Source of the DNA: Candidatus Saccharimonadota bacterium
GTDB taxonomy: Bacteria > Bacillota_I > Bacilli_A > Mycoplasmatales > Hepatoplasmataceae
Assembly: GCA_027925225.1 (NCBI GenBank)
Contig: AP027131.1
Location: 180,001 to 212,000, forward strand
Direction of reading: 5' to 3'
DNA: 32,000 nucleotides
The notes under the pieces are model-generated. The model made no database searches, was not told the origin of the DNA, and worked only from the letters and a program-made list of their open reading frames with translations. Both the position numbers and the translations under genes were made by a program. How positions within the stretch are numbered: the stretch's first letter is position 1; each line of letters starts with the position of its first letter. Shown piece by piece: positions 2,415 to 27,693 of this stretch.

Positions 2415-4028
2415 TTATTTTTTAAGAAGTTTTTTTTCATCTCTAGTAAATTTAAATTTTATTTTTTCGTTTTTTTCTTTTATTTCAATTTCTTTTAATG
2501 ATGGATATTTTTTTATTAAGCTTTTATATTGAGTATTTGTGAAATGTCTTTTTCTTAATCCACTTTTTAAATCTTTAGACATTTTTTTTAATTCTTGTTC
2601 AAATTTTTCTAAAAAATTAGGTGATTTACTTTTTTTATTATCTTCTTTTTTAGATTTTTCTTTTTTAGTTTTTTCTTTTTTAGTTTTCTCTTTTTTAGTT
2701 TTCTCTTTTTTAGTTTTCTCTTTTTTAGTTTTCTCTTTTTTAGTTTTCTCTTTTTTGGGTTCTTCTTTTTTGGGTTCTTCTTTTTTGGGTTCTTCTTTTT
2801 TTGGTTCTTCTTTTTTGGGTTCTTCCATCTCTTTTTTAGATTTTTCTTTATTTTCAATTATTTCTGCTTCTTTTGATTCATCTTCATTTCTTGAATTTGT
2901 AAATTTTTCTTTTAATTTTCTATGATTTTCAATAGAAACTTTTAATTCTTCTAAATGTTTTTTTAGAAATGAATTTTCCCCTTTCAATTCTTCTTCTTTT
3001 TCTTTTTCTTCTTCTAATTCTTTATCTTTTTCTTCGCAATTATCTTTTGGCTTATTTTTTTTTTCCTCTTTTATTTCTTCATCTACTTTTTTAGGCTCTT
3101 CTTTTTTAGGTTCTTCTTTTTTAGGCTCTTCTTTTTTAGGTTCTTCTTTTTTAGGTTCTTCTTTTTTTGAAGAATCAATTTTTTCATCCTTCTTTACTTC
3201 TTCTTTAAATGATTTTTCCATTTGTTCTATTTCAGGATTTTCATTCATATTTTCATGATATTTTATATCTAATTCTTTTTTAGGTTTGTGTGTATGAGCA
3301 ATAACTTCTTTCTTTTCTTTGACAACAGTTTTCTCTTCAGGAATTGTTTGTTTTTCTTCTGGAGTGCTTTCTTCTTTTTCTTCATGTAAAATTTTTTCTT
3401 TTATAAATGAAGTTACTTTTTCCCTAAATGTACTTTTTTCTTCTTGATTAACTTCTTCTTTTCTATTTTCCTCGCTTAATTGTTTAAAAAGATTTTCAAG
3501 TTCTATAAATATTTTTGTTATTTTATCAATTTCATTTTTATTATGATGTGATTTTAGTAATTTTGATTGAATTGATTCTAATTCTCTTTTTTTATTTTCA
3601 ATTTGACTTATTAATTTTATATTATGTTCATTTCCATTATTTTTTATATAATTTTCAACTTCTTTTGTATCAAGTATTTCTTTTTCTAAAGTATGTTGTT
3701 TTTCTTTTAAAATATCGCTTAAGTTAATTTGAACTGTTTTTTCAGTAGTGTTATTACTGTTATATTCTTTTCTGGCATTAGAAATTTTTTTAAATAATAA
3801 TTCTCTTTCTTTCTTTCTTTCTTCCATTAATTCTTCTATTTTGTCTGTTTTATTTTTAAAAACTTCTTCTTTTTTTAAATTTAAAATTTCTGCTTTAATT
3901 ACAGGATCATTTAAAAGTTTATAAATTTCTTTTCTAATCTCATAGCTTTCATCTAAGTAGTTATAATTCCATTTAATGATATTATCAACTCTTTTTAATA
4001 CAATTCTTACAATTTGGTCAGTTGTCAT
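2415..4028 (-). CDS. Lys/Glu-rich low-complexity coiled-coil protein with pentapeptide tandem repeats (function unknown)
   Basis: This is an uninterrupted 537-aa ORF. It contains (KEKTK)x6-7 and two separate (EPKKE)x5 arrays. I see no signal peptide or TM segment (N-terminus MTTDQIVRIVLKRVDNIIKWNY). Confidence 0.75.
   Translation of the reverse strand: MTTDQIVRIVLKRVDNIIKWNYNYLDESYEIRKEIYKLLNDPVIKAEILNLKKEEVFKNKTDKIEELMEERKKERELLFKKISNARKEYNSNNTTEKTVQINLSDILKEKQHTLEKEILDTKEVENYIKNNGNEHNIKLISQIENKKRELESIQSKLLKSHHNKNEIDKITKIFIELENLFKQLSEENRKEEVNQEEKSTFREKVTSFIKEKILHEEKEESTPEEKQTIPEEKTVVKEKKEVIAHTHKPKKELDIKYHENMNENPEIEQMEKSFKEEVKKDEKIDSSKKEEPKKEEPKKEEPKKEEPKKEEPKKVDEEIKEEKKNKPKDNCEEKDKELEEEKEKEEELKGENSFLKKHLEELKVSIENHRKLKEKFTNSRNEDESKEAEIIENKEKSKKEMEEPKKEEPKKEEPKKEEPKKEEPKKEKTKKEKTKKEKTKKEKTKKEKTKKEKTKKEKSKKEDNKKSKSPNFLEKFEQELKKMSKDLKSGLRKRHFTNTQYKSLIKKYPSLKEIEIKEKNEKIKFKFTRDEKKLLKK
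2645..2825. repeat. About 12 contiguous 15-bp tandem units inside the KE-rich CDS (ttttttagttttctc, then ttttttgggttcttc)
   Basis: The periodicity is directly visible. The units encode KEKTK repeats followed by EPKKE repeats on the minus strand. Confidence 0.9.
3087..3161. repeat. Five 15-bp tandem units (ttttttaggYtcttc) inside the KE-rich CDS
   Basis: The repeat is directly visible. It encodes a second EPKKE x5 array using CCT Pro codons, where the 2751-2825 array uses CCC. Confidence 0.9.
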
Positions 4029-24071: not shown

Positions 24072-24272
24072 ATGAAAAATAAAAATTTAAAAATTAACGA
24101 CAAAAAATTATTTTATGATGAATATTTAGAAGAAATTAAAAAATTAAATGATGATATTTTAAATAACAAACCTATTTGGGGCGGAATGAAAAATTCTTCT
24201 AAAGAAGTAAAAATAATTTTAAAAGATGATAATGATTTAAGAGAAGAAACTAAATTTAATATTCTAATTTAG
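24072..24272 (+). CDS. Small hypothetical protein (66 aa)
   Basis: This is an intact ATG-to-TAG ORF in a gap not otherwise occupied. I recognise no motif and no clear RBS. Confidence 0.35.
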   Translation: MKNKNLKINDKKLFYDEYLEEIKKLNDDILNNKPIWGGMKNSSKEVKIILKDDNDLREETKFNILI

Positions 24273-24331: not shown

Positions 24332-24769
24332 TTAATTAAAAATATTGGTTATATTATTGATTTCTATATTTATTGTTTTTAAAATTATATTTTCCTTTGA
24401 AATACTTTTCATTTTACTATTTTTAATTATTTCTCTAAAATCATTTATATTTGTGTAACAAATTTTTTCTTCATTTATAAGATAAAATATAATCAATGAA
24501 ATTCCTCCCAATTTATCAATTATTTCTAATTGTTCTAATTGATGTTTTTTTAATCTTCTAAATTCAAAATTTTTTGTAATGGTTTTAATTTCTATTAAAA
24601 TAAATTTTTGATTATATATTCCAATAAAATCACAAAGTGCTTTTTTAGCATAAATTATTTTTTTATCTTTTGTTATTCTTATTGGTGTTGGTGATTTAAT
24701 AAAATAACCATTTTTTATTTTATTTAATTCTTTTTCTATAATATTTTCAATTCTTTTTCCATTGTTCAT
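24332..24769 (-). CDS. recU: Holliday-junction resolvase RecU-like (PD-(D/E)xK)
   Basis: The protein is 145 aa. The blocks G..IEN.I....N......YFIKSPTPIRI, CDFIGIY, ILIEIKT and KKHQLEQL are collinear with RecU (KKPTP, TDYNGIY, DFEAKET, HQ). Confidence 0.6.
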   Translation of the reverse strand: MNNGKRIENIIEKELNKIKNGYFIKSPTPIRITKDKKIIYAKKALCDFIGIYNQKFILIEIKTITKNFEFRRLKKHQLEQLEIIDKLGGISLIIFYLINEEKICYTNINDFREIIKNSKMKSISKENIILKTINIEINNITNIFN

Positions 24770-24858: not shown

Positions 24859-27300
24859 ATGAGTATAACAAAAAATTTTGATGGATTTGTTGAAAGAATA
24901 GATTATAATAAAATAATTTTTAAAGATGATAAAGTAAAATTTGTTGAAAAATTACAAAAATTAGAAAATTTTGCAAATGAATCTGAAAAAAGAATATTAG
25001 AAAATTCTTCATATATTTCTACAGATTTAAGACAATTATTAGAAATATTTTTAGAGAGATTTATTTTTTTAAGAGTAAAAGAAAATTATAAAGAAATTGA
25101 TAATAGTGAATATTTAAATTCAATTTTAGAAGACAAAATAAAATATTTGGATAAACTTGGTTATTTACCAAAATATATAAAAAATATCTTATTTTGAATT
25201 AAAAATAGAACTAATGATAATTTACATTATAAAAAAGACGACGGAGAAGCAGAAGCAATTAAATTTAATAAATCATCACTTGTTGATTCTTTACAAAATA
25301 TTTATAATCTTTTGTATTGATATTTTGGAGAAAGAAAATTAAGAGAATTTAATTCAAGTAGATATTATAAAATAACCGACGAAAGAGAACCGAATGCCGA
25401 GGTTAAAGTAAAGGAAATTTTTCCAGATGAAAAATTTAAAAATATTGTAATCAATGATCAAAAAATATTAAATATTTTATTTGATAAAAAAATAAAATTT
25501 ATTATTCCTAATTATCAAAGAAAATATGCATGAACCGAAGAAGAAATTGATGAATTATTTTTAGACTTAAAAAAAAGTGTAAAATATGAAAAAAATCATT
25601 TTTTTGGTTTTGTCATTTTAAGTAATCTAGGAATATCAAAAAAGAAAATAAATATAGCTAAAGTTATTGATGGGCAGCAAAGATTTACAACAATAACTTT
25701 AATTGTAAGAGCACTTTATAATACTTATAATAGTTTAAATAAAAACAAAAAAATTGATGAAAATCTTACAAATTTTTTAACAAATAAGAATATTCCAATT
25801 GATAGATTTGATAATGAAAATTCAAAAATTGTTTTTAAAAAAATTTGAAATGGAAGTCATAGGGAATTATATGATCCTCAAAGATATAAAATTGAAGGTG
25901 ATTATGAAGATTTCACAAATACAAAAATTTTTAAAGCTTTTTCTTATATATTAAAAATAATTAAAAAATATAATGAAGAAGAATTAGATGATCTTTATAC
26001 TGGTTTAAGAAATTTGGTTGTTGGTGTAAGTTGAATTAAAAACTATGATGAATTTGAATTATTTGAATCAATTAATTCAAAAGGTTTAAGACTTACTAAT
26101 TTTGATATTTTTAAAAGTTTTATTTTATCATTAGCCGATAAAAGCGGCGATGAGGATTTTGAATTATATGAAAAAGAGTCAAATTTGCTTTCTAATTTAT
26201 TTGAAGAATACATTTCAAATAAATTAACTTTTATTGAAAAAAAAGGTGATGATTTTGAAGAAGTAACTGATAATTTTTTCTTGTCTTATGTTAAATATTA
26301 TTCAAATGAAAAACCTAATAAAAATAGAATTTTTACACAATTTAAAAGAGAGTTTAATAAAAAGTTAGAAAAAAAATTTAATAAAATAAAAGATTTCTAT
26401 CTTGATGAATTTACAGAGATTTTATATGAATTATCAATTTATTTAAATGCATTTCTTTTAACTGAAAGTGGTAAAAAAGAAGTGTGGAAAAAAAGTGTTG
26501 CACTAAAGAATTATTATAAATATTTTTATTCTTATGAAGCTACTGTTTTTTCACCAATTTTAATAAGTTATTTTTTAAAAAGCAAAAATATAATTTATTC
26601 AGAACATGGGAACATAGTTAAATTAAACGAAGAAAATGAATTAATAAAAATTTTAAAACTTATAGAAGCATGAAGAATAAGAGTTCTTATTTGTACAAAG
26701 CACAATAATCAAATAAATATAAGTGGGATGCCAAATTTTATAAAAAAATTTAACAAAAAATATAATGATAATAATATTGAAAATTTTTATGAAATTCTCA
26801 AAAAAGCAATTGATGATGAAAAAGATGGATTATTAGAATACTCAACAGACAATGAGTTTTTATTTTCCTTACAAGAGCCAATTGATAATTTTAGTACTAT
26901 AAAAAATATTATTTTTAAAATAATTCAAAATAATGATGCTGATTTTGATGTATATAATCAAGAAAAATATGATGTTTATTCATTGATAGAAAAAACTGAA
27001 AAAAAGAGAGGAGAGTATTCAAAAGAATTTTTAAATTTAACAGAAGAAAAATTGTCAAAATTAGGAAATTATTTTTTTCACAGTAAAATAAAATTAAAAA
27101 GAAAAAAAGAATATTCTATATCTTCTTTAAATTATTTAAATGACGACAATTTTACTACTAATATAAATAATAAATTTGAAGTTTTAAGTGTAAAAGATTT
27201 AATTAAATATAAAAATAAAGATATAGATGACTATATTATTCCTCGTACAAAAACTATTGCAATAAATGCAGTAAAATTATTTAAAACACCAGAAGATTAG
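24859..27300 (+). CDS. DUF4145-DUF262 (GmrS/ParB-like NTPase) fusion protein with a possibly decayed DUF1524-like C-terminus, 813 aa
   Basis: Track ORFs 24859.., 26185.. and 26728.. and the unlisted stretch 25198-26184 share frame 1 and are joined by six TGA codons. The DUF262 signatures are IPNYQRKYAWTEEEIDELFLDL (25504-), VIDGQQRFTTITLI (25669-) and LFESINSKGLRLTNFDIFKS. The N-terminal part is DUF4145-like (LRQLLEIFLERF...LGYLPKYIKNILFWIKNRTNDNLHY). Confidence 0.8.
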
Positions 27301-27322
27301 TCTTTTAGGGTGTTTTTTAAGG

Positions 27323-27328
27323 TATAAT
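27323..27328 (+). promoter_or_regulatory. Candidate -10 box (TATAAT) for rnpB
   Basis: The TATAAT lies 6-8 nt upstream of the first nucleotide of the predicted P1 stem. No convincing -35 element was found. Confidence 0.4.
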
Positions 27329-27334
27329 TATATA

Positions 27335-27693
27335 TGACTATCAACCAACCGCTGATACAAAATTATTGTATTAGAGGAAAGTCCATGCTGGTACAAACTG
27401 CGATGTTTGTAGTGTTTGTGAGGTAGGAAGAAATAACTACCTAGACAAGAGAAGTACTTGTTATGACATGAATAAACCTAAAGCTTTTGCTACGGTAAAT
27501 TCTATAAAGTGCCACAGGAACGATGTTAAGGGAAACCTTAAATTGAAACGAGGTAAACTCCACAAACCAGTAATCCAAAATTTGGTAGGAGCACCGAGAT
27601 AGGGAAATTGAACTAAATCTTGGAGTAATAATTAGTCATACTAATATTGCTAGATAAATGGTTGGTAAAACAAAACATGGCTTATGATAGTTA
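27335..27693 (+). ncRNA. rnpB: RNase P RNA (bacterial, likely type B)
   Basis: The universally conserved CR-I block GAGGAAAGTCC (about 27375) and the CR-V block ACAAAACATGGCTTA (about 27670) are both present. P1 pairing is ACTATCA (27337-27343) with TGATAGT (27685-27691). The region is locally GC-richer and non-coding in all frames. Confidence 0.9.

What the first reader, a model, noticed from the sequence alone, without database searches (positions are those of the whole stretch)
24859..27300. 813-aa DUF4145-DUF262 fusion gene between recU and rnpB: a candidate single-gene, GmrSD-like defence locus with an atypical C-terminus
Seen in sequence:
- Three track ORFs and an unlisted 1-kb stretch fuse through six TGA codons into one 813-aa protein.
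- The protein carries unmistakable DUF262 signatures (IPNYQRKYAW, DGQQRFTT, LFESINSKGLRLTNFDIFKS).
- The N-terminal 150 aa has the DUF4145 pattern (L..L..LGYLP..I...L..I...N...HY).

Established knowledge: DUF262 is the NTPase/ParB-like half of GmrSD and BrxU-type modification-dependent restriction enzymes. DUF4145 is a sensor-like module found on HsdR and Abi proteins.

Inference:
- The nuclease half is non-canonical. Where DUF1524 should show EH..P ... GNL.L...N, this protein reads SLIEKTEKK ... KLGNYFFHSKIKL (about 26980-27080), so the His-Me finger His appears to be lost.
- Either the effector activity is carried by an unrecognised roughly 450-aa C-terminal region, or the gene has been repurposed.
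- It is the only clearly non-housekeeping gene of this size in the window. It sits divergently from a Holliday-junction resolvase.
Basis: partly seen in the sequence, partly recalled or inferred. Interest (0 to 1): 0.72.

Follow-up and report, generated by a model that had tools for sequence, protein, structure and literature searches.

The report
HEPN-GmrSD defence-type gene, dead nuclease
This is a real 813-residue gene of the woodlouse gut symbiont Candidatus Hepatoplasma vulgare: a relative of GmrSD-type anti-phage restriction enzymes that keeps its NTP-binding sensor half, has lost the catalytic histidine of its DNA-cutting half, and carries an extra N-terminal RNase-like (HEPN) domain, which makes it an interesting variant of a known kind of defence protein rather than something new in kind.

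Summary
Window 24859-27300 (+) is one intact 813-codon ORF read with code 4, with six in-frame TGA codons. The host is Candidatus Hepatoplasma vulgare (gene HPAVJP_1860).

**Domains**
- Residues 207-422 are a canonical DUF262/GmrSD_N domain (Pfam E 4.9e-30) with DGQQR intact.
- The C-terminus is not an unknown fold. It aligns end to end with ordinary DUF262+DUF1524 proteins.
- Residues 651-813 are a degenerate DUF1524 (hhalign 94.5%). Here canonical E-H reads E711-K712 and the metal-binding Asn is missing.
- Residues 1-175 are a DUF4145/HEPN domain, supported through relatives and by fold, with motif K115-x3-N119-x3-H123.

**Relatives**
- More distant relatives from code-4, AT-rich genomes carry DUF4145, DUF262 and an intact DUF1524.
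- The His-less form is confined to Hepatoplasma and its nearest relatives.

**Context**
- The gene is absent from the otherwise syntenic recU-rnpB site in two relatives.
- Paralogues sit at two other loci.
- Relatives lie beside Fic, methyltransferase, Gabija-like and second GmrSD genes.
- dN/dS is 0.38.

**Best reading (inferred)**
It is a defence-type protein whose DUF262 and dead-HNH body senses DNA, with the HEPN domain as the likeliest effector. I class it as a new variant of a known kind, of moderate interest.

The parts
24859..27300 (+). Complete gene, 813 codons plus TAG, read with genetic code 4 (six in-frame TGA = Trp). It is HPAVJP_1860 of Ca. Hepatoplasma vulgare.
   Evidence: No in-frame TAA/TAG against about 75 expected in shuffles. 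dN/dS 0.38 against the 70%-identical orthologue in L005.
24859..25383 (+). N-terminal all-helical domain (aa 1-175), DUF4145/HEPN-like.
   Evidence: Pfam DUF4145 hits in 6/10 family members (best E 3.4e-4) and in relatives P0131 and P0150 (E 9e-5 and 5e-5, at or just under the cut-off). hhalign against the N-termini of those relatives gives Prob 97.9-98.9%. The AF2 model has pLDDT 81 and pTM 0.80, and its six best PDB matches are all HEPN proteins, though with weak E-values of 0.25-1 and TM up to 0.64.
25201..25227 (+). HEPN-type motif K115-N-R-T-N119-D-N-L-H123. It corresponds to the DUF4145 R-x3-N-x3-H motif, with Lys in the Arg position.
   Evidence: Alignment of 35 N-terminal domains. N and H are conserved everywhere except in the locus-C paralogues. 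R and K alternate at the first position. In RAZR the equivalent R146 and H154 are essential (PMC13017515).
25477..26124 (+). DUF262 / GmrSD_N ParB-like NTPase domain (aa 207-422).
   Evidence: Pfam PF03235, E 4.9e-30. PADLOC Orf5, HEC-06 and SspE models. PDB profile hits to DndI 9jfl and SspE 6jiv.
25669..25683 (+). DGQQR motif (D271-R275), the NTP-hydrolysis motif of the family.
   Evidence: Invariant in all 16 aligned family members. Mutating it abolishes function in HEC-06 (Q79A, R80A) and in DndI (R87A).
26125..26808 (+). Helical middle/linker region (aa 423-650), collinear with the middle region of canonical GmrSD-like proteins.
   Evidence: Global hhalign over 195-813 against 69 DUF262+DUF1524 proteins. 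PADLOC Orf5 and HEC-06 models align out to residues 673-744. pLDDT is mostly 85-95.
26809..27297 (+). Degenerate DUF1524-like (His-Me finger) domain (aa 651-813) lacking the catalytic residues.
   Evidence: Local hhalign to the DUF1524 region of canonical proteins gives Prob 94.5%, E 7.5e-8. No Pfam PF07510 hit. dN/dS 0.26, so it is still constrained.
26989..26994 (+). E711-K712, the position of the canonical (D/E)-H catalytic pair.
   Evidence: It aligns to 'EH(I)xP' of canonical members. The second residue is K, S or P in the ten Hepatoplasma members, and tier-1 relatives have 'IIEP'. E471A/H472A abolish HEC-06 defence, and the D/H mutants abolish BrxU defence.
27064..27069 (+). G736-N737, the retained 'GN' of the HNH core (LGNYFFH against canonical GNLTL). 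The downstream metal-binding Asn is not retained.
   Evidence: Invariant in 16/16 members. Alignment.
24332..24769 (-). recU. This is context only: it is the left boundary of the variable site.
   Evidence: PF03838. In relatives that lack the gene it lies directly next to rnpB.
27337..27688 (+). rnpB (RNase P RNA, class B). This is context only: it is the right boundary of the variable site. Its own -10 box (AAGGTATAAT, 27320-27328) lies between the stop codon and rnpB.
   Evidence: Rfam RF00011, 245.6 bits. The upstream box is conserved in all four loci compared.

Best explanation
The gene encodes a lineage-specific member of a HEPN(DUF4145)-DUF262-DUF1524 branch of the GmrSD-like (type IV restriction-like) defence proteins, one in which the DNA-cutting His-Me finger has been inactivated.

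**Shown**
- It has three homologous modules in the family order.
- The NTPase motif DGQQR is intact.
- The catalytic E-H is replaced by E-K, and the metal-binding Asn is lost.
- The whole protein is under purifying selection.
- The gene is accessory at this site.

**Inferred**
- The DUF262 NTPase, the helical middle region and the dead HNH domain still bind and interrogate DNA, possibly modified foreign DNA. They would undergo the NTP-driven conformational or dimer cycle described for BrxU, SspE and DndI.
- Because that body cannot cut DNA itself, the output is most likely delivered by the N-terminal HEPN domain. HEPN RNases need to dimerise to form their active site, so this would amount to RNA cleavage with an abortive-infection-like outcome.
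- Failing that, the output could be non-catalytic DNA binding.
For: **Architecture and motifs**
- DUF262 at E 4.9e-30.
- Collinear alignment of 195-813 to 69 canonical DUF262+DUF1524 proteins.
- Local DUF1524 homology, Prob 94.5%.
- E711-K712 sits at the E-H position in all ten Hepatoplasma members. The seven tier-1 relatives are also His-less.
- DGQQR is invariant in 16/16.

**HEPN domain**
- DUF4145 hits in 6/10 members and in relatives.
- hhalign Prob 98-99% to those relatives' N-termini.
- HEPN proteins occupy the top of the fold search.
- DUF4145 is the catalytic HEPN RNase of RAZR.

**Wider family**
- About 19 further 50%-identity clusters among the top 150 hits carry the N-terminal domain plus DUF262. 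In those checked, EHIxP and Pfam GmrSD_C are intact.

**Defence-type context**
- The site is empty in H. scabrum and in SRR24015491.
- Paralogues lie at nagB-ksgA and at PTS-secA.
- Fic genes lie near three family members.
- A Gabija-like UvrD plus AAA_15/OLD-TOPRIM pair and a second GmrSD lie in L089.
- DNA methyltransferases lie in L091 and L092.

**Selection**
- dN/dS is 0.38 overall. By region it is DUF262 0.30, DUF1524-like 0.26 and HEPN 0.63.

**Functional benchmarks**
- The E/H and DGQQR mutants kill HEC-06 and BrxU defence.
- DndI R87A and N541A abolish function.
Against: - No experiment exists on any member of this branch.
- The window protein itself gives no Pfam DUF4145 hit.
- Its HEPN motif has Lys where RAZR needs Arg, and the HEPN domain is the least constrained part (dN/dS 0.63).
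- The locus-C paralogues have lost the N and H of the HEPN motif as well, yet remain intact ORFs. So at least some family members must work without either nuclease motif.
- The fold matches to HEPN have weak E-values of 0.25-1.
- No phage of Hepatoplasma is known to me, and the genome paper does not list this gene among defence genes.
- The gene family is present in every Hepatoplasma genome sampled, which also fits a host function.
Confidence: 0.5

Rival explanations
1. It is a domesticated or relic protein. A former defence enzyme that lost its nuclease activities is now kept for a host function, such as NTP-dependent DNA or nucleoid binding in the manner of other ParB/Srx-fold proteins.
For: - At least one copy is present in every Hepatoplasma genome seen, in genomes of only 0.6-0.66 Mb.
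- The ORFs stay intact at 35-44% identity between paralogues, and there is purifying selection.
- Locus-C paralogues lack both HEPN and HNH catalytic residues.
- The locus-B copy lies about 7 kb from dnaA-dnaN.
- The dead HNH domain is the most constrained part apart from the short inter-domain linker (dN/dS 0.26).
Against: - The position differs between species, and the recU-rnpB site is empty in close relatives with perfect flanking synteny.
- Relatives sit among Fic, methyltransferase, Gabija-like and GmrSD genes.
- dN/dS is at the high end for the neighbourhood.
- No ParB-type function has been reported for DUF262 proteins in the papers read.
Confidence: 0.25
2. It is a sensor or regulatory subunit that works with a separate, catalytically active nuclease encoded elsewhere. 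One candidate is a BrxU-like GmrSD that forms a mixed dimer with it.
For: - In two tier-1 loci the His-less HEPN-DUF262 gene is directly adjacent to a second GmrSD-like gene: 652 aa in L089 and 619 aa in L093.
- Those two partner genes are homologous to each other (E 2e-26), and both carry DGLQR and DHI[FI]P.
- GmrSD-like proteins act as intertwined dimers.
Against: - There is no second DUF262 gene in the 32-kb window.
- None lies next to any of the five Hepatoplasma-type loci examined.
- No other Hepatoplasma-labelled DUF262 protein appears in the top 120 hits. Weak hits beyond that list were not inspected.
Confidence: 0.15
3. The HNH domain is still an active DNase that uses substitute residues, for example K712 or H741.
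For: - The ββα-like strands (704-708 and 738-742) and the GN motif are retained.
- E711, R717 and K750 are conserved.
- The domain is under constraint.
Against: - The residue after E711 varies (K, S or P). H741 is Tyr or Ala in several members.
- The metal-binding Asn has no counterpart.
- In tested relatives the His is indispensable, and so is the Asn (N541A in DndI).
Confidence: 0.07
4. It is a pseudogene or an annotation artefact created by reading through TGA codons.
For: Under table 11 the frame is interrupted six times.
Against: - The whole window reads as code 4 at 21.5% GC.
- There are no TAA/TAG codons in 813 codons, against about 75 expected.
- Five of the six TGA codons fall on Trp columns that are invariant across all ten homologues (W154, W225, W330, W392; W113 is the exception, and W605 is only majority-conserved).
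- dN/dS is 0.38.
Confidence: 0.01

Closest known systems
GmrSD-like single-chain type IV restriction / defence proteins (Eco94GmrSD, BrxU, SspE, DndI, HEC-06)
   Same: - The N-terminal-to-C-terminal order is the same: DUF262 (ParB-like NTPase with DGQQR), a helical middle region, then a DUF1524-type domain.
- The best sequence, profile and structure matches fall here: PADLOC Orf5/HEC-06/SspE, PDB DndI 9jfl and SspE 6jiv.
   Different: - The catalytic (D/E)-H and the metal-binding Asn of DUF1524 are missing. Both are essential in the tested members.
- An extra ~175-aa HEPN/DUF4145 domain precedes DUF262.
- No dnd/ssp modification genes or BREX genes are adjacent.
Uncharacterised DUF4145-DUF262-DUF1524 proteins of AT-rich, code-4 genomes (e.g. 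P0131, P0150, P0221), and the HEPN + ParB(DUF262) + HNH fusions listed by Anantharaman et al. 2013 (PMC3710099)
   Same: - The three-domain architecture is the same, with collinear full-length profile matches.
- The N-termini are homologous at Prob 98-99%.
- They are also found next to DNA methyltransferase and integrase genes.
   Different: - Those relatives keep EHIxP and a Pfam-detectable GmrSD_C. The Hepatoplasma branch does not.
- The 2013 fusions involve a different HEPN family and DUF2081-type HNH.
RAZR (PD-T7-4), a zinc-finger + DUF4145 HEPN RNase
   Same: It has a DUF4145-type HEPN domain with the R-x7-H spacing. There the domain is the effector RNase, and it is activated by assembly.
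   Different: RAZR has no DUF262 or DUF1524. Its catalytic Arg is a Lys in the window protein. The trigger is unrelated.
DUF262 defence systems without DUF1524 (PD-T4-2, Dazbog, Menshen NsnA)
   Same: DUF262 is used as a sensor/NTPase while the killing activity lies in another domain or gene. Inactivated nuclease domains are reused as binding modules in Menshen.
   Different: There is no PADLOC hit to the PD-T4-2, Dazbog or Menshen models at E<=1. Here the DUF1524 homologue is still present, only dead, and everything is in one polypeptide.
CoCoNuT-type McrBC systems (type IV restriction systems predicted to target RNA; PMC11090510, title and listing only)
   Same: The concept is shared: a type IV restriction scaffold combined with HEPN nuclease domains.
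   Different: The scaffold is unrelated (McrBC GTPase rather than DUF262). I did not read the paper in detail.

Membership tests
GmrSD-like (DUF262+DUF1524) proteins | DUF262/GmrSD_N ParB-like domain above the Pfam threshold | tested here: met
   PF03235, 105.6 bits against a cut-off of 33.2, residues 207-422. All ten homologues hit.
GmrSD-like (DUF262+DUF1524) proteins | DGQQR NTP-hydrolysis motif | tested here: met
   D271-G-Q-Q-R275 is invariant in 16/16. The motif is essential in HEC-06 and DndI.
GmrSD-like (DUF262+DUF1524) proteins | C-terminal DUF1524 domain homologous to GmrSD_C | tested here: inconclusive
   No Pfam PF07510 hit at E<=10. Profile-profile homology to the DUF1524 region of 69 canonical proteins gives Prob 94.5%, E 7.5e-8. 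The global alignment is collinear.
GmrSD-like (DUF262+DUF1524) proteins | His-Me finger catalytic residues: (D/E)-H, GN, and a metal-binding N/H | tested here: not met
   E711-K712 replaces E-H. GN is retained (G736-N737). No counterpart of the distal Asn exists.
GmrSD-like (DUF262+DUF1524) proteins | NTP-stimulated cleavage or nicking of (modified) DNA, and phage restriction | not testable with these tools
   This needs biochemistry and phage assays.
DUF4145 / HEPN superfamily | Match to Pfam PF13643 | tested here: inconclusive
   There is no hit for the window protein. Six of ten homologues hit weakly (best E 3.4e-4, below the cut-off). Relative P0150 reaches 23.7 bits against a cut-off of 23.1. 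The N-termini are homologous at Prob 97.9-98.9%.
DUF4145 / HEPN superfamily | All-alpha HEPN fold | tested here: met
   AF2 model with pLDDT 81 and pTM 0.80. The top six PDB matches are HEPN proteins (7ae6, 1ufb, 2hsb, 7bxo, 8xdj, 1wwp), with TM up to 0.64 but E only 0.25-1.
DUF4145 / HEPN superfamily | Catalytic R-x(4-7)-H motif (R146/H154 in RAZR) | tested here: inconclusive
   The motif reads K115-x3-N119-x3-H123, so H and N are present but Arg is replaced by Lys. R and K alternate across the wider family. The motif is lost in locus-C paralogues.
PD-T4-2 / Dazbog / Menshen (DUF262 systems without DUF1524) | Match to the PADLOC models of those systems | tested here: not met
   Only Orf5, HEC-06 and SspE models are hit at E<=1.
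HEC-06 / DndI-type ('Orf5' in PADLOC) | Full-length model match including the EHxxP nuclease motif | tested here: not met
   The models align from DUF262 into the middle region or the start of the C-terminal region (for example 208-673 to 3-415/543). The EH motif required for HEC-06 function is absent. I did not establish which system PADLOC's 'Orf5' belongs to.
Accessory (defence-island type) gene, as opposed to a fixed core gene | Variable presence at a syntenic site, and defence-type neighbours in relatives | tested here: met
   The recU-rnpB site is empty in L086 and L087. Three different loci are used among Hepatoplasma genomes. Neighbours include Gabija-like, Fic, MTase and GmrSD genes.

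The most novel reading that the evidence does not exclude
The Hepatoplasma/tier-1 branch could be an RNA-targeting derivative of a type IV restriction enzyme. The GmrSD body (DUF262 NTPase plus a catalytically dead HNH kept as a DNA clamp) would read foreign or modified DNA. Through its NTP-driven dimer cycle it would then bring two N-terminal HEPN domains together to switch on an RNase, turning a DNA-cutting restriction enzyme into an abortive-infection switch. On this reading the locus-C paralogues, which have lost both motifs and sit next to a solo HEPN-like gene, would be decoys or regulators of the active copy.
Probability: 0.25. Interest if true: 0.6.

Novelty: new variant of a known kind. 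Interest (0 to 1): 0.45.

Why it matters
GmrSD-like proteins are a widespread family of single-gene defences, and in every tested case the HNH histidine is indispensable. Here a whole branch has discarded that histidine, yet it stays under purifying selection in some of the smallest bacterial genomes and always carries a HEPN domain. That makes it a natural experiment on how the DUF262 sensor can be rewired to another output.

It also adds an unlisted candidate defence gene to the Hepatoplasmataceae, whose published defence inventory covers only R-M and CRISPR-Cas9 (PMC10928387). The practical value is modest: it gives a clear set of point mutants to test (R275, K115/H123, E711).

Tried and rejected
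- **NCBIfam scan:** no family matched.
- **Genome-contig scan with the family alignment:** It returned no Hepatoplasma locus, so it gave nothing on distribution. Synteny was obtained through exact-protein look-ups instead.
- **Profile of the N-terminal domain against PDB sequences:** only chance hits, to ribosomal protein S24e and a HEAT repeat.
- **Fold search of the N-terminal model against viral structures:** nothing significant.
- **Promoter and terminator scan:** 36 promoter-like sites against 35.6 expected, and no terminator, so it is uninformative in 21% GC DNA.
- **Repeat search for target-site duplications or terminal inverted repeats around the gene:** only low-complexity AT-rich matches, so there is no sign of a transposon-like insertion.
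- **Hidden nuclease fold in residues 360-813:** the whole-protein model matches only SspE and DndI at significant E-values.
- **Locus B in H. vulgare:** I tried to check whether it holds a second copy by way of NagB orthologues. No H. vulgare NagB of this type was found, so that site could not be examined. The claim of a single copy rests alone.
- **Pfam on the neighbour genes of L005, L003 and L004:** no hits. My reading of the L005 224-aa protein as Panacea-like and of the L004 222-aa protein as GIY-YIG-like rests only on motifs seen by eye.
Full report
**1. The observation**

The window has 21.5% G+C and reads as genetic code 4. Under table 11 the region 24859-27300 falls into five short ORFs. 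Under table 4 it is one ORF of 813 codons. Six in-frame TGA codons fall at residues 113, 154, 225, 330, 392 and 605, and the ORF ends at TAG 27298-27300. Shuffled versions of the same 2442 nt contain on average 75 in-frame TAA/TAG codons, so the open frame is far beyond chance.

The identical protein is on record as hypothetical protein HPAVJP_1860 of Candidatus Hepatoplasma vulgare, on a 662,108-bp contig. The left neighbour is recU (24332-24769, minus strand; PF03838). The right neighbour is a class B RNase P RNA (27337-27688; 245.6 bits).

**2. Domain anatomy**

*DUF262.* Pfam finds one significant domain, GmrSD_N/DUF262, at residues 207-422 (E 4.9e-30). PADLOC's best models are 'Orf5', HEC-06 and the N-terminus of SspE. 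Several of these align from residue ~200 out to 670-745. NCBIfam finds nothing. A profile of the ten full-length homologues hits the solved structures of DndI (9jfl, E 3e-14) and SspE (6jiv, 7drr). An AlphaFold2 model of the whole protein (pLDDT 74.9) matches only SspE and DndI at significant E-values.

*C-terminal half.* I aligned the family against 69 non-redundant DUF262+DUF1524 proteins recovered, all of which carry the canonical [DE]H..P motif at about position 460-500.
- Globally, residues 195-813 align collinearly with the canonical architecture.
- Locally, residues 650-813 alone align to the canonical DUF1524 region with Prob 94.5%, E 7.5e-8.
- In that alignment 'SLIEKTEKKR' lies on 'TIEHImPQ', so E711-K712 occupies the catalytic E-H.
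- 'LGNYFFH' lies on 'iGNLTLt'.
- The canonical 'N..sN..F..K' helix has no Asn counterpart.
- Across the ten Hepatoplasma-type proteins the residue after the Glu/Asp is K, S or P, and never His.

So the C-terminus is not an unknown 450-residue effector. It is the usual GmrSD middle region plus a DUF1524 homologue stripped of its catalytic residues. In tested relatives those residues are indispensable: E471A and H472A abolish HEC-06 defence, and the equivalent D/H mutants abolish BrxU defence (bioRxiv 10.1101/2024.01.29.577857). N541A abolishes DndI nicking and defence (PMC11662687).

*N-terminal 175 residues.*
- The window protein gives no DUF4145 hit even at E<=10, but six of its ten homologues do (best E 3.4e-4).
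- An exhaustive profile search of 1.84 billion representatives found seven closer full-length relatives (P0121-P0127, 'tier 1'). It also found about 19 more distant clusters whose match starts in the N-terminal domain ('tier 2').
- Tier-2 proteins P0131, P0150 and P0221 carry Pfam DUF4145 + GmrSD_N + GmrSD_C. P0150 reaches the DUF4145 gathering score.
- The Hepatoplasma N-termini align to the tier-2 N-termini with Prob 97.9% (98.9% with tier 1 added).
- A separate AF2 model of residues 1-186 (pLDDT 81, pTM 0.80) has HEPN proteins as its six best PDB matches (7ae6, 1ufb, 2hsb, 7bxo, 8xdj, 1wwp). Csm6, AbiV and sacsin HEPN follow further down. E-values are only 0.25-1 and TM is up to 0.64.

DUF4145 is a HEPN family (PMC3710099). 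In RAZR it is the catalytic RNase, with R146 and H154 essential, which gives R-x7-H spacing (PMC13017515). The window protein reads K115-N-R-T-N119-D-N-L-H123. The Asn and His are conserved in nearly all 35 aligned domains, while Arg and Lys alternate at the first position.

**3. Who has it, and where**

Full-length homologues are confined to Hepatoplasma-type sequences and occupy three loci.

| Locus | Position | Members and genomes |
|---|---|---|
| A | recU-rnpB | The window, and a 70%-identical orthologue in L005 |
| B | nagB-ksgA, ~7 kb from dnaA | H. scabrum, H. crinochetorum |
| C | PTS-secA | Two H. crinochetorum genomes |

- In H. scabrum (L086) and another relative (L087), recU and rnpB are separated by only 63 and 89 nt. 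Synteny on both sides is the same: ftsK, trx, cmk, der, gpsA, hup, Zn-peptidase, dnaD, recU | rnpB, pgsA, cinA, recA, ymdB.
- No flanking repeats mark the insertion.
- rnpB keeps its own conserved -10 box directly upstream in all four loci.

Context in relatives is defence-like.
- P0121 lies beside a second GmrSD, DnaJ, Fic and a Gabija-like UvrD-helicase plus AAA_15/OLD-TOPRIM pair.
- P0124 is preceded by a second GmrSD.
- The two 'second GmrSD' genes are homologous to each other, and both keep DGLQR and DHI[FI]P.
- P0127 lies near an N6/N4 methyltransferase.
- P0150 lies next to a C5 methyltransferase and an integrase.
- Fic genes recur near family members.
- All these loci have 20-25% G+C and in-frame TGA codons.

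**4. Selection**

Against the L005 orthologue, dS (0.46) is like that of the neighbouring genes. dN/dS is 0.38, inside but at the upper end of the neighbourhood range of 0.11-0.45. By region the values are:
- HEPN: 0.63
- DUF262: 0.30
- Middle region: 0.49
- DUF1524-like: 0.26

The gene is functional, and the dead nuclease domain is still constrained.

**5. Mechanism**

*Shown:* an intact NTPase motif, a homologous but catalytically stripped HNH domain, a HEPN-type domain retaining N and H, accessory distribution, and purifying selection.

*Inferred:* the DUF262, middle and dead-HNH body still binds DNA. The C-terminal domain of DndI is the high-affinity DNA-binding part, and ATP hydrolysis modulates binding. 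Inactivated nuclease domains are commonly reused as binding modules. GmrSD-like proteins work as intertwined dimers with NTP-driven rearrangements, and HEPN RNases need dimerisation. The most economical output is therefore HEPN-mediated RNA cleavage after DNA sensing.

*Against this:*
- Arg is replaced by Lys in the HEPN motif.
- The HEPN domain is under relaxed constraint.
- The locus-C paralogues have lost the HEPN Asn and His too.

I therefore hold the effector step at roughly one in three. The overall statement (a HEPN-bearing, HNH-dead GmrSD-type defence protein) I hold at about one in two. The architecture itself is close to certain.

**6. Rivals**

- Domestication for a host DNA-binding role (0.25).
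- A sensor subunit working with a separate active GmrSD, as suggested by the paired genes in L089 and L093 (0.15).
- Residual HNH activity through substitute residues (0.07).
- Pseudogene (rejected).

**7. Comparison and novelty**

The protein belongs to the GmrSD-like superfamily by DUF262 and overall architecture. It fails the defining catalytic test of the nuclease half, so it should not be filed as a type IV restriction endonuclease. HEPN fusions to ParB/DUF262+HNH proteins were noted in 2013 for another HEPN family. DUF262 systems without DUF1524 exist (PD-T4-2, Dazbog, Menshen), but PADLOC does not place this protein in them. The Hepatoplasmataceae genome paper lists only R-M and CRISPR-Cas9 as defences. 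I rate it a new variant of a known kind, with interest 0.45.

Noticed in passing
L003:10542-11057 and L004:10540-11055 (H. crinochetorum, directly downstream of the locus-C paralogues P0009/P0008): A 171-aa gene that is a stand-alone copy of the family's N-terminal HEPN-like domain. It aligns over its whole length, and it also lacks the motif His (…VKGNSENKD…). It sits next to the two paralogues whose own HEPN motif is degenerate. Pfam finds nothing in it.
   Followed up: partly
L089:10421-12379 (-) and L093:6140-7999 (+): In two tier-1 loci the His-less HEPN-DUF262 gene is adjacent to a second, shorter GmrSD-like gene (652 and 619 aa). These carry DGLQR and an intact DHIFP/DHIIP motif, and the two are homologous to each other (27% identity, E 2e-26). 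This may be a two-gene module.
   Followed up: partly
L089:13184-17561: Near P0121 lie a Fic gene and then a UvrD-helicase gene next to an AAA_15/AAA_21 + OLD-like TOPRIM gene, which is a Gabija-like pair. This indicates a defence island in a code-4, 22% GC symbiont contig that is part of a large assembly (GCA_040777445.1).
   Followed up: no
L005:6629-7462, L088:7194-8201, L089:13184-14053: Fic-domain genes recur within a few kb of family members in three different loci. The window itself has no Fic gene: the 66-aa ORF at 24072-24272 is followed directly by recU.
   Followed up: no
L005:10570-11604: The 70%-identical relative has two extra genes between the DUF262 gene and rnpB. One is a 224-aa protein with a '…WLAYQNGPITNHYKYG…' stretch that, by eye, recalls Panacea/DUF4065 antitoxin domains. 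The other is a 116-aa protein with predicted membrane helices. Pfam gave no significant hit. The window lacks both, so this interval is a small hot spot for gene gain and loss.
   Followed up: partly
L004:11120-11788: A 222-aa ORF present in only one of the two H. crinochetorum genomes at locus C has a '…IPCYIGQSKNITNRWIRH…' stretch that resembles a GIY-YIG nuclease motif by eye. There is no Pfam hit.
   Followed up: no
window:27301-27336: Only 36 nt separate the stop codon from rnpB, and no terminator-like hairpin is found. The box AAGGTATAATTATA just upstream of rnpB is conserved in all four Hepatoplasma-type loci compared, whether or not the DUF262 gene is present. So rnpB probably keeps its own promoter.
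   Followed up: partly
window:2415-4028 (-) and 2539-3651 (+): Two long code-4 ORFs (537 aa and 370 aa) overlap on opposite strands in a 21% GC genome. A third ORF in the region contains KKNPKKKNPKK-type repeats. This is probably a low-complexity, Lys-rich gene with a spurious antisense frame. I did not examine it.
   Followed up: no
(no locus): No H. vulgare orthologue of the nagB copy that flanks locus B in H. scabrum and H. crinochetorum was found among 195 hits. The origin-proximal PTS-nagA-nagB block may therefore be absent or different in H. vulgare.
   Followed up: no
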